Shown here one piece after another: positions 1-11,656 of a DNA stretch of 11,656 nucleotides. Source of the stretch: a virus (lineage: Duplodnaviria > Heunggongvirae > Uroviricota > Caudoviricetes). Position 1 is the stretch's first letter. Each line of letters begins with the position of its first letter. The notes beneath the pieces were generated by a model. That model had not been told where the DNA came from. It saw only the letters and a list, made by a program, of their open reading frames with translations, and made no database searches. Both the position numbers and the translations under genes were made by a program. Location of the stretch: IMG/VR virus record IMGVR_UViG_2778261571_000003; one strand, 5' to 3'.

Positions 1-51
1 GACCACCATTATCAAGCTTGCGCCGAAGAGCATCATTTTCAGCTTTCGCAT
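1..51 (-). CDS. Rz1: Rz1-like o-spanin, 5' part only (embedded in the +1 frame of Rz; runs off window start)
   Basis: Minus-strand ATG at 51..49 inside Rz in the +1 frame; translation begins [17 protein letters not shown], matching the N-terminus recalled for lambda/DLP12 Rz1 lipoprotein precursors (MRKLKMM...). Only 17 codons are in the window, so the lipobox is not visible. Confidence 0.45.
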
Positions 52-271
52 CAGCTAACTCCTTCGTGTATTTATCATCGAGTGCATCAGCATCACGCTG
101 GCGCTGCTGCATGTCAGTAATGGTGGCGTTCGCCTTCTCCAGTTCACTGGCCTTGTTATCGCGCTGTTCTTTGTAGGCGATTGCATTATCACGGTAATGA
201 TTAACAGCCCATGACAGGCAGACGATGATGCAGATAACCAGAGCGGAGATAATCGCGGTTACCCTGCTCAT
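1..271 (-). CDS. Rz: Rz-like i-spanin, N-terminal ~90 codons (3' end off window)
   Basis: Minus-strand ATG at 271..269 overlaps the endolysin stop (ATGA). Translation [90 protein letters not shown] has an N-terminal TM helix then a charged coiled-coil-like region, typical of Rz; position after the endolysin fits. Confidence 0.8.
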
Positions 272-765
272 TGTTGCCCCCACAAACAGACCTCACGCTC
301 AATCTCACGACGAGTCATCAGGCCTTTCCATTGCTTACCGCCAGCGTATGCCCAGCGACGTAGCTGGTCACATGCGCCCTTGATATCGCCCTGGTTTATT
401 TTGCGAAGAAGAGTAGATGTTCTGAAATTGCCTGCGCCCACGTTATAGACGAACGAGTAAAGAGCGCCGCGCGTTGTTTCCGGTATATCGACTTTGATGT
501 ACGGGTTAATTTGTCTGGCTACCGTGGCAAGGTCTTTATTCAGGAGGGCTTTGCATTCTGCTTCGGTATACGTTTTACCGGGAATGATGTCTTTTCCTGT
601 ATGCCCGTGACATACAGTCCATACGCCAACGATATCTTTGTATGGTATGTAGCTGACACCTTCCAGACCATCGTTACCACTTGGGCCAGTGATTAACACT
701 GATGCTATAGCAATTGCTCCGCCACCAATAGCAGCAGCAACGGCTTTTCGTAATGATGGAGGCAT
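268..765 (-). CDS. R: SAR endolysin (phage-21 R-type lysozyme, T4-lysozyme fold)
   Basis: 165-aa ORF. N-terminal Gly/Ala-rich weakly hydrophobic segment ([20 protein letters not shown]) typical of a signal-anchor-release domain. Catalytic triad spacing E-8aa-D-5aa-T is visible in [17 protein letters not shown]. Near-identical from memory to phage 21 R / DLP12 RrrD. Start ATG at 765..763 overlaps the holin stop (TAATG). Confidence 0.92.
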
Positions 766-980
766 TATTCACCTCTCGCAGCCTTGCGCTTATCTTCTTT
801 AATCTTGAAATAAAGGTTTGTCAGGTACGTCAGCAGGCCAAATACCAAGCTACCCAGCACACCTATTGCTGCCCACTGTGAGGGCGTGACTTTATCGAGC
901 AGCTGTAAAAACCAGTAGCCAGCACTGCCTGCGGAGGTGCCGTAGGCAATGCCCGTTGTTAACTTATCCATGGATTTCAT
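765..980 (-). CDS. S: Pinholin (phage-21 S-type class II holin), dual-start motif
   Basis: 71-aa [29 protein letters not shown]...[22 protein letters not shown] with two TM segments and a charged C-terminus. Met1 and Met4 (MKSMDK) fit the antiholin/holin dual-start arrangement known for S21. RBS GGAGGTGAGG upstream of ATG at 980. Confidence 0.9.
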
Positions 981-1069
981 AGCCTCACCTCCGCAAATAA
1001 CGGATGGTGTACACGGTTCGGAACGAAGAGGAAAGGTATAGAAGTTACATTAGCGTAAGGCTTGAACAT

Positions 1070-1106
1070 CTATTCAAAAAGAAAAACGCCGCGATTATTC
1101 TGGCGT
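1070..1106 (-). terminator. Possible intrinsic terminator after the AraC-family gene
   Basis: On the minus strand a short hairpin (ACGCC ... GGCGT, 5-bp stem at 1086-1090 / 1102-1106) is followed by a T-rich run (complement of the plus-strand A-run around 1075-1085). The stem is weak. Confidence 0.3.
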
Positions 1107-1167
1107 AGCTGAAAGCATCATACAATTATCAAATACGAAAATTACAAAATCATTAAAACGCATCACG

Positions 1168-1899
1168 TTACATCATGTCTTTTTCTAAAAAAAATCTTGA
1201 TGAATATTGATGGGGAGGAACACCAAAATACCTTCTGAAAACACTTACAAAATATGACGTGTTTTCATAACCGCATATCTCAGCAACTTTTCCAACAGAA
1301 TATAAATTGTAGCTTAATAACCTTTCCGCCATCACCATTCGCTCTTCAAGAATTAACTTACTAAATGATAAGCCTTCGTGCTTTAATTTTCTTTTTAACA
1401 GACTTTCACTCAGATACAGTCTTGAAGATATATCACAAAGTCTCCATGCTGCAGATATATCCGTGTGAATAATAGCCTTAACTTTACTTCCTAAACTATT
1501 AAGACATCCAAATAAAAAACTTTGCACTATTTTCTCTGAAGATAAGATAGCAAGACATGCAAGTGATATTTGATTTCTAACAAAATCCACAGTTCTGCCA
1601 TCACAATTCAAGCATGCAATCAAGTTCTTTAACAATGAAAAATCTTCACATTCCACCATCAAGTATGCCGGATAAAACCTTCTTACAGAAAAAGGTGAGA
1701 GTGTGTTGCTTTTAAAGAAATCATTAACTGTTTTCTCTTCAACATCTACGATCATTACATGATCTATATTTGATGAAAAAAAATCTTTTAAATTGTAATC
1801 AATGAGAACAGCACTTCCTTTTTTAAACAAAATATCTTCTTTACCAATTCGGACATCAAACGAGTTCAACACCAAAATGATAGAACATATGTATGGCAT
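1168..1899 (-). CDS. AraC-family transcriptional regulator (AppY/EnvY-like, AT-rich)
   Basis: C-terminal AraC-type HTH signature (..VGKVAEICGYENTSYFVSVFRRYFGVPPHQY..). Gene is visibly AT-rich compared with the phage backbone. The track ORF begins at GTG 1908; I prefer ATG 1899 (MPYICSI...) because AGGTGG sits 5-6 nt upstream. Stop TAA at 1170..1168. Confidence 0.85.
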   Translation of the reverse strand: MPYICSIILVLNSFDVRIGKEDILFKKGSAVLIDYNLKDFFSSNIDHVMIVDVEEKTVNDFFKSNTLSPFSVRRFYPAYLMVECEDFSLLKNLIACLNCDGRTVDFVRNQISLACLAILSSEKIVQSFLFGCLNSLGSKVKAIIHTDISAAWRLCDISSRLYLSESLLKRKLKHEGLSFSKLILEERMVMAERLLSYNLYSVGKVAEICGYENTSYFVSVFRRYFGVPPHQYSSRFFLEKDMM

Positions 1900-2250
1900 A
1901 TTATCCACCTGATATCATTGGGGTTACACCAGGTAAGTATAGGTGGAAAATCAATATTCGCCAGTTCAACAATAAGGAAAATTTCATTGCATCACAAGTA
2001 TAAAATTATGTATTTAACTCACAAAGACAAATTATTAAACCAATCCGTTATATTATATATAGCTGCGTGGAATCATAATATTATATATTTTGACTGGCAT
2101 GTTTACCAACTTTAAGTTGCATCTCAATTGTTTCTTCAGCGTAAACAGAGTTTTTATACAAACTGACACTCTGGGTATCATAGTGTAGTTTTTACGATTG
2201 TAAATATCCTGCATGCAGGAACTCATCCTTTTGGATGATATCGCATACAA

Positions 2251-3210
2251 TTAATTTACCATCAGTCTTAGAGCCAGTTCGTCCGGATAGGGATCGAAGT
2301 AATTCTGTGTAAGCAAGTAATCATTAGGATACTCACCCAGATAATGCTTCAGCAGAGTCAACGGCGCAAGAAGAGGTAATGTGCCAGAACGATAGTTAAG
2401 TATAACCTCGCTCAACTCTTTACGCTGGCGTGTACTTAAGTAGTTACTAAAATACCCCTGTATATGCATCAGCACATTCGTGTGATTTTTACGTGATGCA
2501 GGTTTTCTGAGAATCGCCATCAGCTTATCACGATACACCTCAAAGTATGATTCAAGGTCCGCCCACTCGTGTATTGCAGCCACAAATGGTCCCATATCTT
2601 TATAGCCTGCCTGACTATGCGCCAACAACTGAAGCTTATAACGACTATGAAAAGCTAATAACTCTCTTCTTGATAATTTCTCCTTGTAAAGGTGATTGAG
2701 CTCATGCAAAGCAAAAACTCTTTCAACAAAATTCTCACGAAGCACTGGATCATGTAATCGCCCATCCTCTTCAACCGGTAGCCAGGAAAACTTTTCCATC
2801 AAAGTGCTCGTAAATAGTCCCACTCCATCTTTACGACCTCGATTACCATTTTCATCATAGACACGCACGCGCTCCATGCCACAGCTGGGAGATTTAGCAC
2901 AAACCACAAACCCCGATACATCCTTTAATTTGTCCATATAAGAACGACTAAACTCTGTCATTCTCTCTGTCACATCCTCATTCTGGTCGTGGCTGAAACA
3001 CATCCGTATATTTCCTTGCGTCGAGCGCACAAGACGTAGAGCAGGACGCGGAACTGGCAGCCCTATAGCCATTTCCGGACATACTGGTCTGAATGTTACC
3101 CATTCCACTAATTTGTCCATTAAAAAGTCAGCTCTTTTGTGACCACCATCAAAACGAACAGCAGAACCGGCCAAACAACCGCTGATTCCAATCACAGGTT
3201 TTTTTATCAT
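2251..3210 (-). CDS. DUF523/DUF1722 two-domain protein (YbgA/TudS-like family)
   Basis: 319-aa ORF. N-terminal region (PVIGISGCLAGSAVRFDGG...VCPEMAIGLPVPR...) resembles the Cys-containing DUF523 core; the C-terminal half resembles DUF1722. RBS GGGGGAG before ATG at 3210. Family assignment is from memory, not a search. Confidence 0.7.
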   Translation of the reverse strand: MIKKPVIGISGCLAGSAVRFDGGHKRADFLMDKLVEWVTFRPVCPEMAIGLPVPRPALRLVRSTQGNIRMCFSHDQNEDVTERMTEFSRSYMDKLKDVSGFVVCAKSPSCGMERVRVYDENGNRGRKDGVGLFTSTLMEKFSWLPVEEDGRLHDPVLRENFVERVFALHELNHLYKEKLSRRELLAFHSRYKLQLLAHSQAGYKDMGPFVAAIHEWADLESYFEVYRDKLMAILRKPASRKNHTNVLMHIQGYFSNYLSTRQRKELSEVILNYRSGTLPLLAPLTLLKHYLGEYPNDYLLTQNYFDPYPDELALRLMVN

Positions 3211-3402
3211 ATTCTCCCCCTTGACTAATTCATTAACACATAAACTGTGTAGTGCACGGAATAAATTGCCTTTCTGGCGTCATCACTGACAATTTTTCTG
3301 TTATGGACTATTCCTAATATAGTATGAAAGTTCTTTAAGTGATCGGTCGTAATCATCTATCTTTCATACTTACTCTCAACTATCAAAAGTACAGGATTTA
3401 TT

Positions 3403-3927
3403 ATGAAGTTATGGCCTGTGTTGACTGGCATTGCACTCTCTTTCACTCTTATAGCATGTAAGGCCCCGACACCACCTAAAGGTGTGCAGCCGATTACAAA
3501 TTTTGACGCCAACCGCTACCTCGGAAAATGGTATGAAATAGCTCGCCTCGAGAACCGGTTCGAACGTGGTCTGGAACAGGTCAGCGCTACTTATGGAAAA
3601 CGGAACGACGGAGGGATTCGTGTACTTAACCGTGGATACGATCCAACGAAAAATAAATGGAGCGAGAGCGAAGGTAAAGCATACTTTACTGGAGATACTA
3701 AAACTGCAGCATTGAAGGTTTCGTTTTTTGGCCCCTTCTATGGTGGCTATAATGTAATCAAACTGGATGATGAGTATAAGTATGCTCTTGTCAGTGGTCC
3801 GAACAGAGAATACCTATGGATTCTGGCAAGGACCCCAACTATTCCAGATAAAGTAAAAGCAGACTATGTGCGAACCGCTCAAAAGTTGGGATTCAATGTC
3901 AATGAATTATTATGGGTTAAACAATAA
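3403..3927 (+). CDS. blc: Outer-membrane lipoprotein Blc (bacterial lipocalin) homologue
   Basis: 174-aa ORF with signal peptide and lipobox (..FTLIAC|KAPTPP). Lipocalin signature recalled from E. coli Blc: NFDANRYLGKWYEIARLENRFERG, GKAYFTG, LKVSFFGPFYGGYNVI, YLWILARTP. Only gene of the operon region on the plus strand; clearly diverged from the E. coli chromosomal Blc as I recall it. Confidence 0.88.
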   Translation: MKLWPVLTGIALSFTLIACKAPTPPKGVQPITNFDANRYLGKWYEIARLENRFERGLEQVSATYGKRNDGGIRVLNRGYDPTKNKWSESEGKAYFTGDTKTAALKVSFFGPFYGGYNVIKLDDEYKYALVSGPNREYLWILARTPTIPDKVKADYVRTAQKLGFNVNELLWVKQ

Positions 3928-3953
3928 AATCCCTACCCGAAATAATACTTATT

Positions 3954-3982
3954 AGAAAAAAACCAGCCTTTGGGGAGGCTGG
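3954..3982 (-). terminator. Rho-independent terminator downstream of Q (tR'-like position)
   Basis: Minus-strand RNA: CCAGCCU-CCCCAA-AGGCUGG (7-bp GC-rich stem at 3963-3969 / 3976-3982, 6-nt loop) followed by a U7 run (plus-strand A-run 3956-3962). Lies ~100 nt beyond the Q stop, where lambdoid phages place the late-leader terminator. Confidence 0.6.
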
Positions 3983-4082
3983 CTAAATCAGGAAACAAGC
4001 TGTTATATGATAATAACTACGTTGCGATTCCAACATTTAAAATGTTAGACTAATGACAATCAGACAGCAACTTTTCCTTTAA
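3983..4082 (-). promoter_or_regulatory. Putative late promoter / Q-utilisation region between Q and the terminator
   Basis: Inferred from position only (lambdoid late promoter and Q binding/pause site lie directly downstream of Q). Candidate minus-strand elements such as TTGGAA ... TATCAT exist, but no confident -35/-10 pair could be fixed by eye. Confidence 0.3.
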
Positions 4083-4460
4083 TTATTTCGAACAATCAGC
4101 ATCCATCTCCAATCGGAGATCCAACACCATCAGCATACCCTCCACTACGCCCTCAGCTTTCTGAAGCATCCTGCCAACCCAACAATCAGATCGCCCATGC
4201 TTACGTGCAAGCGCCATAAAAGTCATGCCGCCGACATAATAGTCCACCAATAAATCATGCAAATCGCTGTTGTTCTTTTTCAGACGGGCCATGCACCCGC
4301 AAATGATCATCGCGTCATCGTCACAACATTGTGGGCGAGATTTTACTTTTGAAGGAATTAATCCCTTAAAACCGGCGGCAATGGACGACCAGGTCACATC
4401 TTCATGATTATTAGCCGCCCACGCTCCCCAACGCTCAAGAACCATCTGAATATCACGCAT
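4083..4460 (-). CDS. Q: Late-gene antiterminator Q (phage-82 / DLP12 QuuD type)
   Basis: Translation [75 protein letters not shown]... matches what I recall of DLP12 QuuD, including the Cys-rich segment. Track ORF starts at TTG 4475; ATG 4460 (MRDIQ...) preferred. Stop TAA 4085..4083. Confidence 0.85.
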
Positions 4461-4545
4461 CAACTTACTCCACAAAACTCAGACCAGAACGCCAATTACA
4501 AGCAAAAATCAACAAAACAGTATTAGTTGATTGTTATCTCTGACT

Positions 4546-4686
4546 TCATACTCCTGCTCCTGTCAGTGTTTTGGCGTAATTCTTCAGTATTCGGTAATCG
4601 GTCAAAACAGAACCGGGGAAACGATATAAGCGCAGACGCCCCCAGCGGTGGCGAAGAAGTTCTGCCATATTAAACTCAAACATCAT
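4546..4686 (-). CDS. ylcG: Small protein, YlcG-like (46 aa)
   Basis: Not in the ORF track (<60 aa). Hand translation from minus-strand ATGATG at 4686: [46 protein letters not shown], stop at 4548..4546. Start overlaps the rusA stop (ATGA). Sits between rusA and Q as ylcG does in DLP12. Confidence 0.55.
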
Positions 4687-5045
4687 TCATTCCCCATTTC
4701 GGTGATGGTCAGTTCCAGCCTCCCACCTTTGGTAACAGGCATCTTCACAACGCGGTAATCAACGACCTGAGCATCATCCAGCCAGAAACATGCTTTAGTG
4801 AGTGCGTCAAAAGCGGCTTTTTGCAGATTATCCAGGTCACGGCGACGGCGATCCGGCATGTGGCACTCAATGCGGATTTTCACAGGCATAGCCAGGCCGA
4901 TATCTAGCATTGCGTTTTTAATGATTCGGGCGACGTTATCGCGGTATGCCTGCCCCTCTGCGCTGATGTGCGTGCGTCCGCGATTATGGCGGTAATAGCG
5001 ATTATTGCTCGGAGGCCAGGGTAATGTGATGCTGTAGGTATTCAC
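4683..5045 (-). CDS. rusA: Holliday-junction resolvase RusA
   Basis: 120-aa [29 protein letters not shown]...[31 protein letters not shown], essentially the DLP12 RusA sequence as recalled. Start codon is GTG (5045..5043), overlapping the ybcO stop. Confidence 0.95.
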
Positions 5046-5332
5046 GCCTTAATAACCCCCTCTTTCAGCCAGATAACCTGTGTTCTCGCCATACCTTCCA
5101 GCGCGCATTCTTTTGCATATGCAGCATCGACAAAATGTGTGCGGCGGTCGATTTCGTCGTGGCAGGCAGAACATGCAATGGTGGCAATCAGGTCTGGCGG
5201 TTTGATACCGGTACCGCACAATCCAGCCAGCCGGATATGTGCCAGTACAGACGTCTCAGAATTGCCATTACATACGCCAGGGATTCTTACCTGGCATTCC
5301 CGACCACGCGCTGCTTTTCTCAAATCAGCCAT
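5042..5332 (-). CDS. ybcO: YbcO-like protein (DUF1364; Cys-rich putative nuclease)
   Basis: Translation from ATG 5332: [67 protein letters not shown]..., matching recalled DLP12 YbcO. RBS AAGGAGGA 4 nt upstream. The track ORF start at 5371 is an in-frame upstream extension that overlaps ninE. Confidence 0.8.
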
Positions 5333-5495
5333 GATTCCTCCTTGCTGCCAGTCGCAACCATTTTTTATCAACCAGGCTAGCGGTATATCCGAGCAGTGTT
5401 GGTATTTCGGATGGCTTCAGCTCAGGCTTACGCTTACGACGATTTGATACTCTGTAGATGTGTCCGTTCATGACACGAATAAGCGGTGTAGCCAT
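5325..5495 (-). CDS. ninE: NinE-like small protein (56 aa)
   Basis: Not in the ORF track. Hand translation from ATG 5495: [56 protein letters not shown], stop 5327..5325. ATG overlaps the ybcN stop (TAATG) with AGGAGG upstream. Order ybcN-ninE-ybcO-rusA matches DLP12. Confidence 0.65.
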   Translation of the reverse strand: MATPLIRVMNGHIYRVSNRRKRKPELKPSEIPTLLGYTASLVDKKWLRLAARRNHG

Positions 5496-5950
5496 TACGC
5501 CTCCTGCTTGTCGCGGAGCAGCTGGAACTCGCAGCTCTGCGGAATAGTCAGGTGGCAGCCAATATTCATCGCCCAGGCTTCAACCTTACACAGGAAGACA
5601 TACATCTCTCCGGTATCAAGATTGGAGGTATGACGTAATGACTGAATGGTGGTGATTTCACCGGTTACGACATCAACCAGTTCTTTGGTTTCATAACCGA
5701 GATAAGTGTGTTTGAGAGCATCTTTTACCCAAGCTGGAGTGGCGAACGTTTTACCCCTGCTGATGAGGTATTCACTGATTTCGCTGTACCACATGTGGCT
5801 GAGTGCATTCTGGGAAAGACTGCGTCTCTCGCGCCACGGTTTAAGCACCATGCGAAAGCATTTGCCGTCCTCCAGATAAGGCTGGATCTGCCGACCGATA
5901 GCGGTGAAGTTACCGCGATGCAATTTGATACCATCTTGTGGGAGGTTCAC
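5495..5950 (-). CDS. ybcN: YbcN-like protein (NinB-related; DLP12 YbcN family)
   Basis: 151-aa [24 protein letters not shown]...[18 protein letters not shown]... The RSLSQN..W motif resembles lambda NinB (RSLDQNRKLW) and the whole matches recalled DLP12 YbcN. GTG start at 5950 with GGAGG 6 nt upstream. Confidence 0.75.
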
Positions 5951-6156
5951 GCTTCACCTCCGCAGAGATCAAACGCTGGATGCAAAATATCGCAGGTGCA
6001 TTTCTGCATCTGTGAATGGAGAAGAGAGGTTGGATTGTATGTGCGCATAAACGTCCCCGTTTAGCGCAGAAGTCACCGGAGTTGTTCAGGCTCCGATTAC
6101 TTAATTATGGCAAGTTGATTATCGCAAATCAAAGGTTTTAATTGTGCTTTATTCTT

Positions 6157-6357
6157 TCAAGCGTTTCCTTCATACCAAAGCCTATAAAGTTTTTCTTCTT
6201 CGTTTGGGTTAATAGGCTCACCATGTTTTAATTTTTCAGTGTACAAAATTGTTGAACAAATCGCGGAAGTTAATCCAGTGATCGCCATCTGCCGCAGATC
6301 GGATTTTTGTGTCCCCCTCAACAGACGATCTCCCATCCATGTAATAATTGTATCCAT
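6157..6357 (-). CDS. Hypothetical small protein (66 aa), no recognised family
   Basis: ORF MDTIITWMGDRLLRGTQKSDLRQMAITGLTSAICSTILYTEKLKHGEPINPNEEEKLYRLWYEGNA with only a weak SD (AAGGG, ~9 nt spacing). Co-oriented with the operon and downstream of the ORF-free stretch. Coding status uncertain. Confidence 0.35.
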   Translation of the reverse strand: MDTIITWMGDRLLRGTQKSDLRQMAITGLTSAICSTILYTEKLKHGEPINPNEEEKLYRLWYEGNA

Positions 6358-6940
6358 GCTTCAGCCCTTCTTAGTAAATAGTGTGTAGGGCGACTGAAGG
6401 ACCGAGTTTATGCTTTTTCGCATTGCTTTCAGTTAGTAGACCGGTATAGCACCGGAAACAATCCTACGGCAAATTGGTTGTCTGACCTCTCGGTTTTTCG
6501 TGCATTAACCGATACCCACTACAGTCTCGGCGAAAGCTGCACACCCCCAAGGTGTACTGGTAGCACTCGGCACAGCCTAGCGCGCCACTTTCTCCTCACT
6601 ATCCAGTCTAATTTTATCCCCTAGTCAGACACTCAGATGTAGTGCTCAGCAGCGGCATGCGGGGGAATACAAAAACTCGGACAAAATTGGGCCCTCCTTT
6701 TTGAATCACTCGCGGGGATGTAGTTATTAATACATGGGAAAAGATCTGTTTTCAAATCCAACATTATATGGTTTCAATACCACGGGGTGGCTATGTGTTT
6801 CTCATTATTATTTACAATCTACTGTAATCGCTCCGAACGCAAATGCGTCAATACTCGAATCAACTGATCATCCTGCCACGACTGAAATCTCAAATAGGCC
6901 GTTTCTCAAGTAAGAGATTTTGAATGCATTATTGGCTACT

Positions 6941-6969
6941 GAAATAAAAAACCCAGCGCAAACTGGGTT
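6941..6969 (-). terminator. Rho-independent terminator after the secreted-protein gene (tR2-like position)
   Basis: Minus-strand RNA: AACCCAG-UUUGCG-CUGGGUU (stem 6950-6956 / 6963-6969) followed by UUUUUUAUUU. Lies immediately after the stop of the 6987..7481 gene. Confidence 0.55.
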
Positions 6970-6986
6970 CATATGAAATTTTTTTG

Positions 6987-7481
6987 TCATTTCCAATTGC
7001 AAGACTGTGAAATTTTTTCCACAACCTTATCAATCTCAGACAAGTCAAACTCAACTACTTGCATAGTTGATCCATAAGGTTCAAACCCAAAAATAGCTTT
7101 TTTATGCTTAGCCAAGGTCTTTATAAATTGTATTGGTTGTGGAGCAAATGCAGAATCACCGCCTTCCCCACCTCCCCAAACACTCTTGACCGGCTTTCCG
7201 CCATCTAACCGCACTGTAATTCTTGGGTTGTCCGAACCCATATAATCATTGAATGATAAATAGGCATCTGTTTTGTTATCACTACAACGCAACACCAGTG
7301 AAGTTGCACGATCAGTACCTGCTTTGTTATATGAATCTGGTGATAAATTAAGAGCCACAAAGTCAGTCTGGTCAGTCATTTTATTTATCTCAGACTTTGT
7401 TATCCACGGCCCTAACTTCTCTACACCAGCATTTGCTGTAAACGAGGCACTTATAACAAAGGCTAAAATAAATTTTCTCAT
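6987..7481 (-). CDS. Secreted/periplasmic protein of unknown function (cargo gene)
   Basis: 164-aa ORF with a classical signal peptide (MRKFILAFVISASFTANA|GVEK...). Strong RBS AAGGAG 8 nt before ATG 7481. AT-rich relative to neighbours. No family recognised; no counterpart at this position in lambda. Confidence 0.7.
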   Translation of the reverse strand: MRKFILAFVISASFTANAGVEKLGPWITKSEINKMTDQTDFVALNLSPDSYNKAGTDRATSLVLRCSDNKTDAYLSFNDYMGSDNPRITVRLDGGKPVKSVWGGGEGGDSAFAPQPIQFIKTLAKHKKAIFGFEPYGSTMQVVEFDLSEIDKVVEKISQSCNWK

Positions 7482-7627
7482 AACCCTATCTCCTTGGATT
7501 CAAAGAACTAAATATTATCAAGTCTCTTGCCACTAGAAAACCCACTTTATTTCCAAACTCTGATGGCATTCCTGAAAATCCGCTTCATACTCACTTGCCC
7601 CGCCCTATCATCCTGAGTAGCTAACCG

Positions 7628-7801
7628 TTAAACAAACGTTCGCCAGACCTTACCATCAATGACCAGGATTCCTGCCCGCGTCATTTTTGCCGCAGCCTTA
7701 TTTATGCTGGTTAATGTCACACCTGTTGTCGCAGCAACGTCCGGCGCACAGAAGCTCTTGTGCGTCTCCAGATAATGAATAATTGCCTCTTTGCCCGTCA
7801 T
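7628..7801 (-). CDS. ren: Ren-like protein, truncated (57 aa; lambda Ren is longer)
   Basis: Not in the ORF track. Hand translation from ATG 7801: MTGKEAIIHYLETHKSFCAPDVAATTGVTLTSINKAAAKMTRAGILVIDGKVWRTFV*, which matches the recalled N-terminal half of lambda Ren up to ..KVWRT and then stops (TAA 7630..7628). ATG overlaps the P stop (ATGA). Confidence 0.6.
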   Translation of the reverse strand: MTGKEAIIHYLETHKSFCAPDVAATTGVTLTSINKAAAKMTRAGILVIDGKVWRTFV

Positions 7802-8499
7802 ACAGTTGCTCCTTTCAGTCCGAACTTCGCTTTGATTTCTGCGATCTTCGCCAGAGCCTGAGCCCGGTTAAGTGGTCTACCGCCCATGACAGGAAGTTGT
7901 TTTACTGGTTCAGGTATAGCCTCACCACGGTTAATTCGTGCGGTCATACAGGACAGTTCATCGGCAGCCTTGCGCCGTAATTCCGCGTCAGTCAACGCAT
8001 TGGCCCGCATGTTCTGATACAGGTTGGTAACCAGCCAGTAGTGCGCGTTTGATTTCCACGGATAAGACTCTGCATCCGGATACAGCCCGCGCTTCCGGCA
8101 ATACTCGTAAACCATATCAACCAGCTCGCTGGCGTTTGGCAGCCCGGCGGTAACGGATGCTTCTTCCCGGCACCAGGCGACAAACTGCCCGGGTGATGGC
8201 AGGAATGGTCGATTCTGCCGACGGGCTACGCGCATTCCAGCGTTAACCTGTTCCATTGTGGTGATCCCGTTTTCCCGGAAAGCCAGAACCCACTGGCGGC
8301 GAATTTCGTTCAGTTCGTTCTGGTCACGGTTAGCCAGGCTCGCAGGGAAAGTTGCCAGCAACTGGCTGAATACACCGTTGATGATCTGCGCTACCTGCTG
8401 TACCTGCGGCTTTTCGTCGTACTGTTCCGGCATGTTGTTGGCGATCCGGCGCATCTGCTCACGGTCAAAGTTAATCATCTGTGCGGCGATGTTTTTCAT
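7798..8499 (-). CDS. P: Replication protein P (lambda P-type DnaB helicase loader)
   Basis: From ATG 8499: MKNIAAQMINFDREQMRRIANNMPEQYDEKPQVQQVAQIINGVFSQLLATFPASLANRDQNE...GLKGATV (233 aa), almost residue-for-residue lambda P as recalled. ATG overlaps the O stop (ATGA at 8499..8496). The track ORF start at 8604 is an upstream in-frame extension inside O. Confidence 0.95.
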   Translation of the reverse strand: MKNIAAQMINFDREQMRRIANNMPEQYDEKPQVQQVAQIINGVFSQLLATFPASLANRDQNELNEIRRQWVLAFRENGITTMEQVNAGMRVARRQNRPFLPSPGQFVAWCREEASVTAGLPNASELVDMVYEYCRKRGLYPDAESYPWKSNAHYWLVTNLYQNMRANALTDAELRRKAADELSCMTARINRGEAIPEPVKQLPVMGGRPLNRAQALAKIAEIKAKFGLKGATV

Positions 8500-9425
8500 A
8501 GATCCACCCCGTAAATCCAGTCTGTGTTTGTCAGGTCGAGTTTTGGTTTGCCGGCTGTCACGCCAGCCTGTTGCTTGTTTCGGTTGATTTCGAGCTGGGT
8601 CCACTTGTCGCGGAGTTTGGCCGGACTCAGCACGTTACCGGACCAGAAGTTGTCCTGGCATGCCCAGCGGAACAGTACACACATGTCGCGGTGGTTACGT
8701 CCGTCACGTTCACGCATCAGGCGGATATCGTTAGCCCACCCTGCAAAATTCGGTTTTCTGGCTGATGGCGCGATGGTCTTCACCATGTCAAACATCCACT
8801 CTGCGGCGGTCAGGTCTTCTGCTGTCCCCCACTTGCTGCCGCTCTGAATTGCAGCATCCGGTTTCACCACAGGAAGGGCATTTTCTGGCTGGTCAGAGGA
8901 TTCGCCATAATTCTCGGACGAAAAAGGTTTTATATTGTCTTTTGTTAGTTTGTCTTTTGTGTTTACCTGATTCGGGTAAATGCCTTTACCTGATTTGGGT
9001 AAGCTTTTCTTACCTGATTCAGGTAAATTTACCTCTTTCAGGTAAACTTTATTTTTCTTACCCGATTCGGGTAATGTTGACCATTCACTGACCACATTAT
9101 TGATGCCGATATTCCGCCCGCTCTGAATAAGAATTCCACGCTTTACCAGAACACTTTTTGCAGCAGAACACTTGTGCGGCAATATCCCGGTCAATTCGGA
9201 AAGTTGCTCGTTGCTCACCCAATCCAGTCTTTTATTAAAGCCATATGTTTTGCGCATGACAGCCAGGAAGACCAGAAGCTGGTGCTGTGTTAATCCGGCC
9301 AGCATCACAGCTTCCAGCAACTCATTTGCAATGCGCGTATAACCATCGTCGAGATCTGCCACGCGCCGCTCCTTTTGTGCCACATCCGGCACTGGAAAAT
9401 TGAATATCTCAGCAGTGTTTGCCAT
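8496..9425 (-). CDS. O: Replication initiator O (lambda O family) with embedded origin
   Basis: From ATG 9425 (RBS GGGAGGA 4 nt upstream): MANTAEIFNFPVPDVAQKERRVADLDDGYTRIANELLEA..., ending ..LDLTNTDWIYGVDL like lambda O. The central linker (..LPESGKKNKVYLKEVNLPESGKKSLPKSGKG..) is encoded by the iteron repeats. The track start at 9515 is an upstream extension. Confidence 0.9.
   Translation of the reverse strand: MANTAEIFNFPVPDVAQKERRVADLDDGYTRIANELLEAVMLAGLTQHQLLVFLAVMRKTYGFNKRLDWVSNEQLSELTGILPHKCSAAKSVLVKRGILIQSGRNIGINNVVSEWSTLPESGKKNKVYLKEVNLPESGKKSLPKSGKGIYPNQVNTKDKLTKDNIKPFSSENYGESSDQPENALPVVKPDAAIQSGSKWGTAEDLTAAEWMFDMVKTIAPSARKPNFAGWANDIRLMRERDGRNHRDMCVLFRWACQDNFWSGNVLSPAKLRDKWTQLEINRNKQQAGVTAGKPKLDLTNTDWIYGVDL
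8921..8962. other. AT-rich segment flanking the iterons (candidate DNA-unwinding element of the origin)
   Basis: AAAAAGGTTTTATATTGTCTTTTGTTAGTTTGTCTTTTGTGT lies immediately on the O-downstream side of the iterons and contains a tandem direct repeat TTGTCTTTTGT (8935-8945 and 8950-8960). Iterons followed by an AT-rich stretch is the ori-lambda architecture. Confidence 0.5.
8963..9074. repeat. Origin iterons: five 17-bp dyad-symmetric repeats inside O
   Basis: TTACCTGATTCGGGTAA (8963-8979), TTACCTGATTTGGGTAA (8986-9002), TTACCTGATTCAGGTAA (9010-9026), TTACCTCTTTCAGGTAA (9029-9045), TTACCCGATTCGGGTAA (9058-9074). Each is a near-palindrome TTACC..GGTAA, spaced 19-29 bp apart, in the middle of O as in ori-lambda. 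Confidence 0.8.
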
Positions 9426-9511
9426 AATTCCTCCCGCAATGAGTGCGTTACGATTTGCACCTGAAAGTCGGCTCTGTTCCCGCAGACCGGCTTTCGCCAT
9501 TTCCGAACCTG

Positions 9512-10051
9512 TCATATTGCCCCCAGCATGGTGGTGACCATCGCCATCAGTGGACCAGCCAAATCCGGGTCCACACGAAACATCGACACAATGCCTTCAC
9601 TCATCTCCTTCAGTTTCTGGTGGCGTGGTGCGTTGAGAATGACAGCCTGTTTTGCCTCACTGAGTTCCTTTTCCATTTCAGCCAGCCGAGCCATGAAGCT
9701 ATCCTGCTCAACCAGGTGGCCGCGATATTCCAGCGGTAGTACCGCCAGAATTGCCGGGGTCAATTCACGCACGTTATTTCGGTATTTTTCAGAATCGAAT
9801 TTGTTATCGAGGAAGCGGAACAGCTTCTGGCGTGCACGGCTGACATCATCAGGGAAATCGATGGTGCCGCCGCCCTGCTCCCGATACTCATTCACAATGA
9901 GTGCGGCAACGACATCCTGATTATCTACAGCCGACCAGGCGCGGACGGCATCACGGATTTTTTCGTGGCCTGGAGCTTGTTTTGTTTGAGAACGATTTAT
10001 CACCGCAGTCGGGCTAAATCCGCTAGTCTGTTGGTATGTAAGTGGTTGCAT
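9512..10051 (-). CDS. YdaT-family protein (CII-position regulator; annotated 'toxin YdaT' in Rac-like prophages)
   Basis: 179-aa ORF in the cII position between the Cro-like gene and O. Motifs IVNEYREQGGG and ELTPAILAVLPLEYRGHL resemble those I recall from Rac YdaT. RBS AAGGAG 7 nt before ATG 10051. Confidence 0.65.
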   Translation of the reverse strand: MQPLTYQQTSGFSPTAVINRSQTKQAPGHEKIRDAVRAWSAVDNQDVVAALIVNEYREQGGGTIDFPDDVSRARQKLFRFLDNKFDSEKYRNNVRELTPAILAVLPLEYRGHLVEQDSFMARLAEMEKELSEAKQAVILNAPRHQKLKEMSEGIVSMFRVDPDLAGPLMAMVTTMLGAI

Positions 10052-10096
10052 AATTGACTCCTTTAGTTTGAATTGACTGTTAAGTTGATTGCTTAT

Positions 10097-10109
10097 TGTT
10101 AAAGAGCGT
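10097..10109 (-). promoter_or_regulatory. boxA-like element (candidate nutR) between the Cro-like gene and the YdaT-like gene
   Basis: Minus-strand sequence CGCTCTTTAACAA matches the boxA consensus recalled from lambda nut sites and rrn antiterminators (CGCTCTTA / TGCTCTTTAACAA). It sits just downstream of the Cro-like stop, where lambda has nutR. No clear boxB hairpin was found by eye. Confidence 0.45.
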
Positions 10110-10120
10110 GAAATGGAAAT

Positions 10121-10351
10121 TTAAGCTGCGTTCTTTTCAGTGTGTGGAAACAACTTCGGAAGATCCGGGCGAATCTGGTATGCCTTCACTACTCCACCAG
10201 TAGCCGTAACAATGCTGCCGACATGTTCAGGGGATACCTTTGCTTTGTTGTGAAGCCACTTATAGACGGCCTGCTGTGAAACTTCGCAGGCAGCGCCTAG
10301 TTTCTTTTGTGAACCAACGATATTGATCGCTGTTTTGATGGCTGGGTTCAT
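10121..10351 (-). CDS. Cro-like HTH regulator (YdaS family)
   Basis: 76-aa ORF divergent from the repressor gene. HTH-like segment (..GSQKKLGAACEVSQQAVYKWLHNK..) and overall similarity to Rac YdaS as recalled. RBS GGAGG before ATG 10351; stop TAA 10123..10121. Confidence 0.75.
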   Translation of the reverse strand: MNPAIKTAINIVGSQKKLGAACEVSQQAVYKWLHNKAKVSPEHVGSIVTATGGVVKAYQIRPDLPKLFPHTEKNAA

Positions 10352-10455
10352 AACAACCTCCGTGGTTAATTTGAATCAAGATTAAAACTATGGTTGTTTT
10401 TAGTCAACAACCATTTTCGTTTGATGAAATAAAACCTTGGTTGTACATTTGGACT
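10352..10455. promoter_or_regulatory. Divergent operator/promoter region between the Cro-like and cI genes
   Basis: Perfect 9-bp inverted repeat ATGGTTGTT-7bp-AACAACCAT at 10390-10414. Half-site GGTTGT/ACAACC recurs at 10353-10358, 10392-10397, 10407-10412 and 10439-10444. Candidate rightward promoter on the minus strand: -35 TTGACT (10402-10407) overlapping the palindrome, 17-bp spacer, -10 TAATCT (10379-10384). Candidate cI promoter: TTGATG (10421-10426), 17-bp spacer, TACATT (10444-10449), ending 6 nt before the cI ATG with no SD, suggesting a leaderless mRNA. Confidence 0.5.
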
Positions 10456-11145
10456 ATGAAAACAACACTCTCAGAAAGACTTAAAGAAGCCAGATTAGCG
10501 CGAGGCCTTACACAAAAGGCGCTTGGGGATTTGGTCGGGGTTAGCCAAGCAGCTATTCAGAAAATCGAAACAGGGAAAGCTAACCAAACAACTAAAATCG
10601 TGGAGATCGCGAACGCTTTGGGTGTGCGCGCAGAATGGTTATCTTCTGGCGTTGGAAATATGTCAGACAGTACAGTGCAACCAATACAAACAACTGTCAG
10701 CCATTCCAAATACTTTAAGATTGACGTTCTTGATATCGAAGTGAGTGCCGGGCCGGGAGTCATCAACCGTGAGTTTGTAGAAGTTCTACGTTCGGTTGAG
10801 TATTCGTTTGACGATGCTCGTCACATGTTCGATGGCAGGAAGGCGGAAAATATCCGTATCATTAACGTACGCGGTGACAGCATGTCAGGAACGATCGAAC
10901 CAGGTGATCTGCTGTTCGTTGATATCACTGTTAAATCTTTCGACGGTGATGGTATCTATGCGTTTCTGTACGACGACACAGCCCATGTAAAGCGCCTGCA
11001 AATGATGAAGGATAAACTGCTGGTTATCTCTGATAACAAGAGCTACTCACCGTGGGACCCAATCGAGAAAGACGAGATGAACCGGGTATTCATCTTCGGG
11101 AAAGTCATCGGGAGCATGCCGCAGACGTATAGGAAGCATGGATAA
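10456..11145 (+). CDS. cI: CI-type prophage repressor (XRE-family HTH + LexA-like S24 peptidase domain)
   Basis: From ATG 10456: MKTTLSERLKEARLARGLTQKALGDLVGVSQAAIQKIETGK.. (HTH), with a C-terminal autocleavage domain carrying the Ser/Lys dyad context (..VRGDSMSGTIEPGDLLFVD.. and ..AHVKRLQ..). Divergent from the Cro-like gene. The track start at 10390 is an extension that would begin inside the operator palindrome. Confidence 0.9.
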   Translation: MKTTLSERLKEARLARGLTQKALGDLVGVSQAAIQKIETGKANQTTKIVEIANALGVRAEWLSSGVGNMSDSTVQPIQTTVSHSKYFKIDVLDIEVSAGPGVINREFVEVLRSVEYSFDDARHMFDGRKAENIRIINVRGDSMSGTIEPGDLLFVDITVKSFDGDGIYAFLYDDTAHVKRLQMMKDKLLVISDNKSYSPWDPIEKDEMNRVFIFGKVIGSMPQTYRKHG

Positions 11146-11240
11146 TTCGACATAAATTCAACAAGTTAACTTTGGCTTCAAAAAAGCATCGATAACATTG
11201 CATTATATTTTTCCTTTTGTCTAACTTAAAAGGATGAACA

Positions 11241-11494
11241 ATGGAAGAACGTGGGAATTACCTAATAGCCCCCCTAGAAGTAATTGGTTCTGGCGGTTTT
11301 GGCCTTGTAGAAAAAATAAGGTTATATAACTCACAAAGAAAAATTTGTGGTCTATATGCCAGAAAAATTTTACGACCTGATGCAACAGATCCTGAACTCT
11401 TTACCAGATTTGAACGAGAAGTAAGATATCAAACTGAATGCCTGCATACTAATATTGTCCAAATATTCATATGCCACTTACAGAATGCTCAGCC
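11241..11494 (+). pseudogene. Hanks-type protein kinase gene, N-terminal ~84 codons only, interrupted by IS10
   Basis: MEERGNYLIAPLEVIGSGGFGLVEKIRLYNSQRKICGLYARKILRPDATDPELFTRFEREVRYQ... shows the glycine-rich loop G-S-G-G-F-G-L-V, a beta3 lysine (YARK) and an alphaC glutamate (FEREV). The ORF ends at a stop supplied by the first bases of IS10 (cTGAtg at 11496-11498). RBS AAAAGGA before ATG 11241. Confidence 0.7.
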
Positions 11495-11656
11495 CTGATG
11501 AATCCCCTAATGATTTTGGTAAAAATCATTAAGTTAAGGTGGATACACATCTTGTCATATGATCAAATGGTTTCGCGAAAAATCAATAATCAGACAACAA
11601 GATGTGCGAACTCGATATTTTACACGACTCTCTTTACCAATTCTGCCCCGAATTAC
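11495..11656 (+). mobile_element. IS10 (Tn10-type IS4-family element), outside end; continues beyond window end
   Basis: From 11495 the sequence CTGATGAATCCCCTAATGATTTTGGTAAAAATCATTAAGTTAAGGTGGATACACATCTTGTCATATGATCAAATGG... matches the IS10 outside end as I recall it, including the terminal repeat, the IHF-site region and the Dam GATC (11561-11564) in the transposase promoter region. The 9 bp just outside (TGCTCAGCC, 11486-11494) fit the IS10 target consensus NGCTNAGCN. Confidence 0.85.
11602..11656 (+). CDS. IS10 transposase, first 18 codons (continues beyond window)
   Basis: ATG at 11602 followed by MCELDILHDSLYQFCPEL, the recalled N-terminus of IS10/Tn10 transposase. Confidence 0.8.
   Translation, partial: MCELDILHDSLYQFCPEL

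What the first reader, a model, noticed from the sequence alone, without database searches (positions are those of the whole stretch)
11241..11656. IS10 insertion cuts a kinase gene next to the prophage repressor
The kinase-like ORF after cI ends after ~84 codons exactly where the IS10 outside end begins (11495); its stop codon comes from the IS terminus. The 9 bp flanking the element (TGCTCAGCC) match the IS10 hotspot consensus NGCTNAGCN, so this looks like a genuine transposition event rather than an assembly artefact. The IS10 outward promoter (pOUT, established for IS10) would read antisense into the kinase fragment and toward cI.
Basis: partly seen in the sequence, partly recalled or inferred. 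Interest (0 to 1): 0.65.

Follow-up and report, generated by a model that had tools for sequence, protein, structure and literature searches.

The report
IS10 insertion splits a prophage kinase
A common jumping gene (IS10) has landed at its preferred target sequence inside a protein-kinase gene next to the repressor of a lambda-like E. coli prophage and has destroyed that gene; this is a real but ordinary mutation.

Summary
Window 11495-11656 is identical (162/162) to the outside end of IS10-right and carries RNA-OUT on the minus strand and the first 18 transposase codons. The kinase ORF (11241-11498) is 85 codons long. Its TGA stop lies in the IS terminus CTGATG. The 9 bp before the element, TGCTCAGCC, fit NGCTNAGCN exactly. 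The window is a whole 11,656-bp draft contig (NLNA01000062.1) that breaks inside IS10, so its own far end cannot be read. Two results stand in for it. An uninterrupted prophage (L032) is 100% identical to window 3496-11494. It continues through the single TGCTCAGCC into an intact 241-aa Ser/Thr kinase and an overlapping 247-aa PP2C phosphatase. In another E. coli genome, the 165-aa ORF I predicted from "IS10 inside end + TGCTCAGCC + rest of kinase" exists exactly, two accession numbers after an 85-aa fragment. The truncated product lacks the HRD and DFG motifs, so the allele is null. The pOUT geometry (antisense to the kinase fragment and cI) is correct, but no effect of it is shown. The kinase-PP2C pair sits in a variable cargo slot after cI, like rexAB or 933W stk. 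It is plausibly an exclusion or toxin-antitoxin module, but that is untested. Verdict: a genuine, routine IS10 hotspot insertion of low to moderate interest.

The parts
10121..10351 (-). Cro-position regulator (YdaS-type HTH, 76 aa), divergent from cI
   Evidence: Pfam YdaS_toxin 4e-17 and P22_Cro 8e-5. Annotated as Cro or transcriptional regulator in relatives.
10390..11145 (+). cI-type prophage repressor (HTH_3 + Peptidase_S24). The longest ORF is 251 aa; RefSeq calls the 229-aa form, which starts at 10456.
   Evidence: Pfam Peptidase_S24 1.5e-18 and HTH_3 6.5e-13. Annotated as S24 family peptidase or cI in relatives.
11241..11494 (+). 5' fragment of a Hanks-type Ser/Thr kinase gene (native codons 1-84 plus two bases of codon 85). 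It keeps the P-loop GSGGFG, the ARK lysine and FEREV, and lacks HRD (aa 131) and DFG (aa 151).
   Evidence: 100% identical to the start of the intact 241-aa kinase of L032. The intact allele scores 112 bits against Pfam Pkinase.
11486..11494 (.). IS10 target site TGCTCAGCC (fits NGCTNAGCN), expected to be duplicated at the far end
   Evidence: It is the only GCTNAGC site in the 1.47-kb kinase+PP2C cassette. The consensus is quoted in PMC4574204.
11496..11498 (+). TGA stop codon of the truncated kinase ORF, supplied by the IS10 terminus CTGATG
11495..11656 (+). IS10-right, outside end, bp 1-162 of the 1329-bp element. The contig ends here.
   Evidence: 162/162 identical to IS10R of R100 and 6 mismatches to IS10L..
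11540..11609 (-). RNA-OUT, the antisense RNA made from pOUT, transcribed toward the IS end, the kinase fragment and cI
   Evidence: Rfam RF00240, 98.8 bits, E = 3.7e-20, full length 1-70.
11610..11656 (-). Region that must hold pOUT. A -10-like TAAAAT lies at 11622..11617, 7 nt upstream of the RNA-OUT 5' end.
   Evidence: Minus-strand sequence read. The existence of pOUT is established knowledge (Simons et al. 1983, cited). The hexamer assignment is my inference; the simple promoter scan reported nothing here.
11602..11656 (+). First 18 codons of the IS10 transposase (MCELDILHDSLYQFCPEL), in the same direction as cI and the kinase

Best explanation
A copy of IS10-right transposed by cut-and-paste into the single perfect target site (TGCTCAGCC) of a prophage-encoded Ser/Thr kinase gene. 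That gene lies directly downstream of the cI repressor of a lambdoid (DLP12/lambda-like) E. coli prophage. The outside end of the element faces the 5' part of the kinase gene. The insertion ends the kinase reading frame after 85 codons with a TGA from the IS terminus. This removes the catalytic loop (HRD) and the DFG motif, so the kinase is a null allele (shown from sequence). In intact prophages the kinase gene overlaps a PP2C phosphatase gene by ATGA. The 1.3-kb insertion is therefore expected to be polar on the phosphatase unless an outward promoter at the IS10 inside end drives it (inference). pOUT and RNA-OUT point out of the element, antisense to the kinase fragment and cI. cI-sense transcripts enter IS10 in the transposase direction. 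Those geometries are shown; their effects are inferred. The draft contig stops inside IS10 because the element is repeated in the genome, so the far junction lies on another contig.
For: The element is IS10R: 162/162 identity to IS10R and 6 mismatches to IS10L, an RNA-OUT match and the transposase N-terminus. The junction is in exact register with a full-consensus hotspot, one of only 3 GCTNAGC sites in the window. An isogenic empty site exists: L032 is 100.000% identical to window 3496-11494 (7,999 bp, 0 mismatches). It reads ...GAATGCTCAGCC|TTGGTTCG... and encodes an intact 241-aa kinase of the same A10 allele plus the PP2C. The 10 other distinct uninterrupted copies fetched (17 locus entries in all, several being re-fetches of the same contigs) also have a single TGCTCAGCC. 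The far junction is seen by proxy. The 165-aa protein predicted from IS10 inside end + TGCTCAGCC + rest of kinase (MRGSLSAQPWFV...) exists exactly as MCZ5468642.1. It lies on a contig of the same recorded length (5,759,448 bp) as an 85-aa N-fragment, MCZ5468640.1, two accession numbers earlier. That is the same site and orientation, with a solo IS10 and A-Q-P codons on both sides. The window is a complete contig ending in the repeat. HRD and DFG lie downstream of residue 85.
Against: The far end in the source assembly was not seen. A Tn10 terminus or a later IS10-mediated deletion or inversion therefore cannot be excluded for this genome. The junction is absent from 5,426 complete E. coli genomes and from the viral, GTDB-representative and JGI metagenome collections, so there is no DNA-level replicate. 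The proxy genome carries a different kinase allele (D10, not A10) and was checked only at protein level.
Confidence: 0.88

Rival explanations
1. The end seen is the IS10-right terminus of a complete composite Tn10 (about 9.3 kb, carrying tetracycline resistance) inserted in the kinase gene, not a solo IS10.
For: Outside ends are also the termini of Tn10, and the window shows only an outside end of IS10R type. Tn10 uses the same target consensus.
Against: In the only other genome with an insertion at this site, the far junction is an IS10 inside end, and exactly one gene lies between the two kinase fragments. Solo IS10 copies are abundant on E. coli chromosomes, with up to 45 places per genome. 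Predicted fusion ORFs for an outside-end far junction are not in the protein collection, but I built them from the IS10R sequence, not IS10L, so this is weak evidence.
Confidence: 0.08
2. IS10 inserted here, or nearby, and then promoted an adjacent deletion or inversion. In that case the DNA beyond the element in this genome is not the rest of the kinase-PP2C cassette.
For: IS10/Tn10 are known to promote adjacent deletions and inversions (established knowledge). The far flank is unseen.
Against: The left junction sits exactly at a perfect consensus site, as a primary insertion would. A simple insertion at the same site is documented elsewhere.
Confidence: 0.05
3. The junction is an assembly chimera: reads from an unrelated IS10 copy were joined to the prophage contig.
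For: The contig ends in a multi-copy repeat in a short-read draft assembly.
Against: A chimera would not place the exact IS terminus directly against a full NGCTNAGCN site, which has a chance of about 3 in 10,000. The same 85-aa truncation with an IS10-derived continuation exists in an independent genome. The same contig is recorded for 2 samples.
Confidence: 0.02

Closest known systems
IS10-right / Tn10 insertions at NGCTNAGCN hotspots (IS4 family; annotated by NCBI as ISVsa5 family)
   Same: The terminal 162 bp, RNA-OUT, the transposase start and the perfect target consensus are all identical to the textbook element. In a second genome the 9-bp duplication is implied at protein level. The outward promoter pOUT is present.
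   Different: Nothing mechanistic differs. Only the target is new: a prophage kinase gene. The junction is absent from 5,426 complete E. coli genomes.
933W Stk, the prophage kinase between cI and OL/N that excludes phage HK97
   Same: It is a Hanks-type kinase on the cI strand, immediately downstream of cI in a lambdoid immunity region. Its exclusion role is reported in PMC3681748.
   Different: It is only 25.7% identical (E = 3e-7). It is 348 aa against 241 aa. The annotated 933W-like immunity-region record examined shows no adjacent phosphatase gene, whereas this kinase overlaps a PP2C gene.
KKP (PfkA-PfkB-PfpC), the kinase-kinase-phosphatase toxin-antitoxin and defence module of Pf and other prophages (PMC11341870)
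   Same: It is a prophage-borne pairing of a Pkinase with a PF13672-type PP2C phosphatase. It offers a plausible logic of kinase as toxin and phosphatase as antidote.
   Different: The module here has one minimal kinase with no CSD or FHA domain, two genes rather than three, and the order kinase then phosphatase. It does not meet the published definition.
lambda rexAB and other cargo genes in the slot downstream of cI
   Same: Same position and strand as cI. In relatives with the identical cI, the slot instead holds the PADLOC candidate PDC-S42. In phage PhiR26_1, with a closely related cI, it holds a putative lipoprotein.
   Different: The proteins are unrelated. No exclusion phenotype has been shown for this cassette.
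IS transposition into defence genes (for example cas genes, PMC10359306)
   Same: An IS knocks out a gene of a putative anti-phage module.
   Different: The defence role of this kinase is not demonstrated, and selection for its loss is not shown.

Membership tests
IS10-right (IS4 family) | Outside-end terminal sequence of IS10R | tested here: met
   162/162 identical to IS10R of R100 and 6 mismatches to IS10L. 2,736 plasmid records match at >=99%.
IS10-right (IS4 family) | RNA-OUT antisense RNA gene reading toward the outside end | tested here: met
   Rfam RF00240, 98.8 bits against a gathering score of 41, at 11609..11540 on the minus strand.
IS10-right (IS4 family) | Transposase ORF starting at bp 108 | tested here: met
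   Window 11602-11655 translates to MCELDILHDSLYQFCPEL, the first 18 residues of the R100 IS10R transposase. The rest lies beyond the contig.
IS10-right (IS4 family) | Insertion at the NGCTNAGCN target | tested here: met
   TGCTCAGCC at 11486-11494 abuts the terminus. There are 3 such cores in the window. The consensus is quoted in PMC4574204.
IS10-right (IS4 family) | 9-bp direct duplication at the other end, and a full 1329-bp element with an inside end | not testable with these tools
   The contig ends 162 bp into the element. Proxy evidence comes from another genome: the exact predicted 165-aa inside-end fusion ORF, MCZ5468642.1, and the 85-aa fragment, MCZ5468640.1.
Hanks-type protein kinase (Pfam PF00069) | Full kinase domain with the P-loop, the catalytic Lys/Glu pair, HRD and DFG | tested here: not met
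   The intact allele scores 112.4 bits against a cut-off of 31.7. The window fragment scores 23.9 bits, below the cut-off. HRD at aa 131 and DFG at aa 151 lie beyond the break at aa 85. The window therefore holds a kinase gene remnant, not a kinase.
933W Stk exclusion kinase | Close sequence relationship to Stk | tested here: not met
   25.7% identity, E = 3e-7. The lengths are 241 aa and 348 aa.
933W Stk exclusion kinase | Location on the cI strand between cI and OL/N | tested here: met
933W Stk exclusion kinase | Activation by an infecting phage and abortive infection | not testable with these tools
   This needs infection assays.
KKP module (PMC11341870) | PP2C phosphatase plus two kinases, one with a CSD domain and one with an FHA domain | tested here: not met
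   There is one 241-aa kinase with Pkinase hits only, and one PP2C.
PD-T4-6 (PADLOC) | Match to PD-T4-6 profiles over their whole length | tested here: inconclusive
   E = 1.5e-34, but only kinase-domain positions 15-205 of 327 are matched. mad6 and Stk2 profiles match equally well.

The most novel reading that the evidence does not exclude
The kinase-PP2C pair downstream of cI is an uncharacterised two-gene, phosphorylation-based toxin-antitoxin or abortive-infection module. It would be a minimal relative in logic of KKP and 933W Stk. Its single perfect IS10 hotspot would act as a recurrent off-switch, because the same site is hit in at least two allelic backgrounds: A10 in this window and D10 in the MCZ5468640/42 genome. 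A third 85-aa truncation exists in the E10 allele, but its cause is unverified. The insertion would also place pOUT antisense to cI, which could alter how stably the prophage stays dormant.
Probability: 0.25. Interest if true: 0.5.

Novelty: new member of a known kind. Interest (0 to 1): 0.27.

Why it matters
As it stands, this is a clean natural example of IS10 target specificity. It has an isogenic empty site, and it inactivates a cargo gene in the immunity region of a lambdoid prophage. It matters mainly for annotation: the 85-aa "hypothetical protein" WP_201793148.1 is a kinase remnant, and the contig break is caused by IS10. Wider interest would come only if the kinase-PP2C cassette proves to be a phage-exclusion or toxin-antitoxin module. 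The cassette is rare, found in 15 of 5,426 complete E. coli genomes, and sits where rexAB and stk sit. In that case the natural IS10 allele and its 100%-identical intact counterpart would form a ready-made mutant and wild-type pair. Repeated hits at one hotspot would then show how mobile elements switch off costly prophage defences.

Tried and rejected
- **Junction searches.** Exact-pattern scans found nothing. I searched the left junction and the predicted right junction in viral contigs. I also searched a degenerate pattern covering both junctions in GTDB representative genomes and JGI metagenomes; the pattern was validated on the window. A megablast of a junction-spanning query against 5,426 complete E. 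coli genomes found no place covering the junction.
- **DNA of the second insertion-bearing genome.** Look-ups of the window's cI and O protein did not surface the 5.76-Mb contig. The O look-up did yield the isogenic empty site, L032.
- **Edge-of-contig partial ORFs.** Eight hypothetical ORFs for the far junction of the source assembly are not in the collection.
- **Outside-end fusion ORFs.** Tn10-type fusion ORFs are not in the collection. This is weak evidence, because I built them from IS10R rather than IS10L.
- **Promoter scan.** The sigma-70 consensus scan found no promoter in 10000-11656, not even the established pOUT and pIN. It is therefore uninformative here.
- **Source strain.** A literature search for the assembly accession found nothing.
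- **Kinase orthology.** I considered and rejected that the kinase is an orthologue of 933W Stk (26% identity) or a KKP member.
- **Recurrent inactivation.** I considered whether frequent inactivation of the kinase points to selection. Truncated and frameshifted alleles exist. However, all 15 copies in complete genomes are intact, and the intact alleles sit on 593, 828 and 42 contigs. Loss is therefore rare, and selection is not supported.

Full report
**What is in the window**

The window is a complete 11,656-bp draft contig, NLNA01000062.1 of NCBI assembly GCA_002229155.1. It comes from a lambdoid E. coli prophage. Read on the minus strand, it carries:
- a partial spanin gene, then lysozyme and holin genes;
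- AraC-type, YbgA and lipocalin cargo genes;
- Q, ylcG, rusA, ybcO, ninE and ybcN;
- a TagO/VasI-like gene, ren, P and O;
- a YdaT-type gene in the cII position and a YdaS-type gene in the cro position.

On the plus strand it carries an S24/HTH cI repressor (10390-11145) and the ORF in question. The best-matching complete genome, E. coli TB06053, is 99.5% identical over window 1-11494.

**Check of the observation**

- The sequence from 11495 begins CTGATGAATCCCC.
- Window 11495-11656 is 162/162 identical to IS10-right of Tn10 in plasmid R100. It differs from IS10-left at all six positions that separate the two copies in this stretch.
- It matches thousands of plasmid records annotated as IS4-like ISVsa5/IS10 transposase.
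- Rfam finds a full-length RNA-OUT at 11609..11540 on the minus strand, scoring 98.8 bits against a gathering score of 41.
- Window 11602-11655 encodes the first 18 residues of the IS10 transposase.
- The kinase ORF runs 11241-11498 and has 85 codons. Codon 85 straddles the junction, and the TGA at 11496-11498 lies within the IS terminus.
- The nine bases before the element, 11486-11494, are TGCTCAGCC. They meet every specified position of the IS10 consensus NGCTNAGCN, which is quoted with its 9-bp duplication in PMC4574204.
- The window has only three GCTNAGC cores. A breakpoint in exact register with one is therefore expected by chance about 3 times in 10,000.

**Empty sites**

Alignment shows the window following uninterrupted prophages up to ...GAATGCTCAGCC and then switching to IS10. 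A look-up of the window's O protein returned locus L032 (GCA_053275515.1). L032 is 100.000% identical to window 3496-11494, that is 7,999 bp with no mismatch or gap. It has the same kinase allele, with Ala at residue 10. It continues ...TGCTCAGCC|TTGGTTCGTAATGG into an intact 241-aa kinase and a 247-aa PP2C phosphatase.

The other ten distinct uninterrupted copies fetched also carry a single TGCTCAGCC; these span 17 locus entries in all, several of which are re-fetches of the same contigs. That site is the only GCTNAGC in the 1.47-kb cassette. This replaces the proposed in-silico joining of flanks: removing IS10 restores a full kinase.

**The far end**

The far end is not in the contig. I built IS10R + TGCTCAGCC + the rest of the kinase in silico. 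This predicts a 165-aa ORF that starts at an ATG in the IS10 inside end, MRGSLSAQPWFVMELAE.... That exact protein is in the public collection as MCZ5468642.1, on a 5,759,448-bp E. coli contig. An 85-aa N-fragment, MCZ5468640.1, is recorded on a contig of the same length, two accession numbers earlier.

So another genome has an insertion at the same site and in the same orientation. It has room for one gene between the fragments and has A-Q-P codons on both sides. That is what a solo IS10 with a 9-bp duplication would give.

That genome carries Asp at residue 10. Ala-10, Asp-10 and Glu-10 all exist as common full-length alleles, on 593, 828 and 42 contigs. Two independent hits at this hotspot are therefore more likely than one inherited event, although a single SNP separates the alleles. 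A third 85-aa truncation exists in the Glu-10 allele (P0023). Its cause is unverified, because a TGG-to-TGA change at codon 86 would give the same product.

DNA-level confirmation was blocked. The junction is also absent from the other collections searched.

**Consequences**

The intact protein is a Hanks-type kinase. It scores 112 bits against Pfam Pkinase, and its closest solved relatives are StkP and PknB. The 85-aa product keeps the P-loop (GSGGFG, aa 16), the ARK lysine and FEREV. It lacks HRD (aa 131) and DFG (aa 151), so it cannot be catalytic.

In intact prophages the kinase stop and the phosphatase start overlap as ATGA. I therefore infer that the insertion is polar on the phosphatase. 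IS10 is reported to carry outward promoters at both ends (PMC4574204), so some expression of the phosphatase remains possible.

RNA-OUT is transcribed from 11609 toward 11540, that is, toward the kinase fragment and cI, both on the plus strand. pOUT is documented to drive adjacent genes (PMC2744996; PMC4574204). No terminator-like site was found on the minus strand between the IS end and the cI start. Whether antisense transcripts reach cI, and whether they matter, is inference only.

From my own knowledge, IS10 is reported to be protected against such read-through (Davis, Simons and Kleckner 1985). I did not check that claim here.

**What the disrupted gene belongs to**

The kinase-PP2C cassette lies between cI and kil-gam-bet-exo, on the cI strand. 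The same cI protein is followed in other prophages by a 313-aa protein that matches the PADLOC defence candidate PDC-S42 at E = 3e-86. In phage PhiR26_1, whose cI region closely matches the window's, the next gene is a putative lipoprotein. This is therefore a variable cargo slot, positionally like lambda rexAB.

In 933W-type phages the same slot holds stk (OR-cI-stk-OL-nutL). Stk is reported to exclude HK97 (PMC3681748). It is only 26% identical to this kinase.

A homologous kinase and PP2C pair, 44% and 47% identical, sits after the lysis genes of phage Flotzy. The two genes therefore travel together. The kinase matches several defence-kinase profiles, including PD-T4-6, mad6 and Stk2, but only over the kinase domain.

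The closest characterised analogue in logic is the prophage KKP module, in which kinases act as the toxin and a PP2C as the antitoxin (PMC11341870). This cassette has one minimal kinase without CSD or FHA domains, so it is not a KKP member. The cassette is rare, in 15 of 5,426 complete genomes, and intact in all 15. There is therefore no evidence of widespread selection for its loss.

**Rivals**

- A Tn10 terminus rather than a solo IS10, about 8%.
- A secondary IS10-mediated rearrangement, about 5%.
- An assembly chimera, about 2%.

All three would be settled by finding the far-junction contig or reads of the source assembly.

**Verdict**

The observation and the interpretation are both supported. 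This is a genuine, recent and routine IS10-right insertion at a perfect hotspot that knocks out a prophage kinase gene. It is a new instance of a well-known kind of event. Its modest added interest is threefold: the target is an uncharacterised kinase-phosphatase cargo module in the rex/stk slot; the same hotspot has apparently been hit more than once; and a 100%-identical intact allele exists for comparison.

Noticed in passing
L001 6852-8317 and L032 1810-3275; the window holds only 11241-11494: In intact relatives the kinase is the first gene of a two-gene cassette: a 241-aa Ser/Thr kinase and a 247-aa PP2C phosphatase joined by a 4-bp ATGA overlap. The cassette is in only 15 of 5,426 complete E. 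coli genomes. A homologous pair, 44% and 47% identical, sits after the lysis genes of phage Flotzy. It may be an uncharacterised toxin-antitoxin or exclusion module.
   Followed up: partly
L005 6830-7771 (the slot downstream of a cI identical to window 10390-11145): Other prophages with the identical cI carry, instead of the kinase-PP2C pair, a 313-aa protein with no Pfam hit that matches the PADLOC defence candidate PDC-S42 at E = 3e-86. Phage PhiR26_1, with a closely related cI, carries a putative lipoprotein there. The slot after cI is a variable cargo site.
   Followed up: partly
Predicted far junction (not in the window); proteins P0003 and P0018: The IS10 inside end supplies an in-frame ATG that overlaps the transposase stop (TTATGA). 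The 3' part of the kinase therefore becomes a 165-aa ORF, MRGSLSAQPW..., which GenBank annotates as 'protein kinase' (MCZ5468642.1). It lacks the N-lobe and is unlikely to be active.
   Followed up: partly
Proteins P0017/P0009, P0022 and P0023 (relatives, not the window): Other inactivated alleles of the same kinase exist. There are frameshifts in A-rich runs near codons 95-102, giving 99-aa + 164-aa and 113-aa products. There is also a third 85-aa truncation, in the Glu-10 allele, of unverified cause.
   Followed up: no
window 1-270 and 11495-11656: The window is a whole contig. Its left end breaks inside the spanin (Rz-like) gene of the lysis cassette, and its right end breaks inside IS10. 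Both are sequences repeated within E. coli genomes, as is typical of short-read assemblies.
   Followed up: partly
window 10390-10414: A 9-bp-stem inverted repeat, ATGGTTGTT-TTTAGTC-AACAACCAT, lies in the cro-cI divergent region. It overlaps the first ATG of the 251-aa cI ORF, whereas RefSeq starts cI at 10456 (229 aa). It looks like an operator or promoter-region palindrome rather than a terminator.
   Followed up: no
window 1168-3927 and 6987-7481: There are cargo genes between Q and the lysis genes: an AraC-type regulator, a YbgA/DUF1722 protein and a lipocalin. A TagO/VasI-like 164-aa gene sits in the nin region.
   Followed up: no
window 10390-11656: IS10 is oriented so that cI-sense transcripts, if they read through the kinase fragment, enter the element in the transposase direction, while pOUT transcripts run antisense to cI. 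No terminator-like site was predicted between them on either strand.
   Followed up: no
window 11476-11494 (query positions 97-115): BLAST matches to other chromosomal IS10 copies extend 15-19 nt beyond the IS terminus into their own flanks. This probably reflects the shared target-site consensus among thousands of IS10 insertion sites rather than common ancestry.
   Followed up: no
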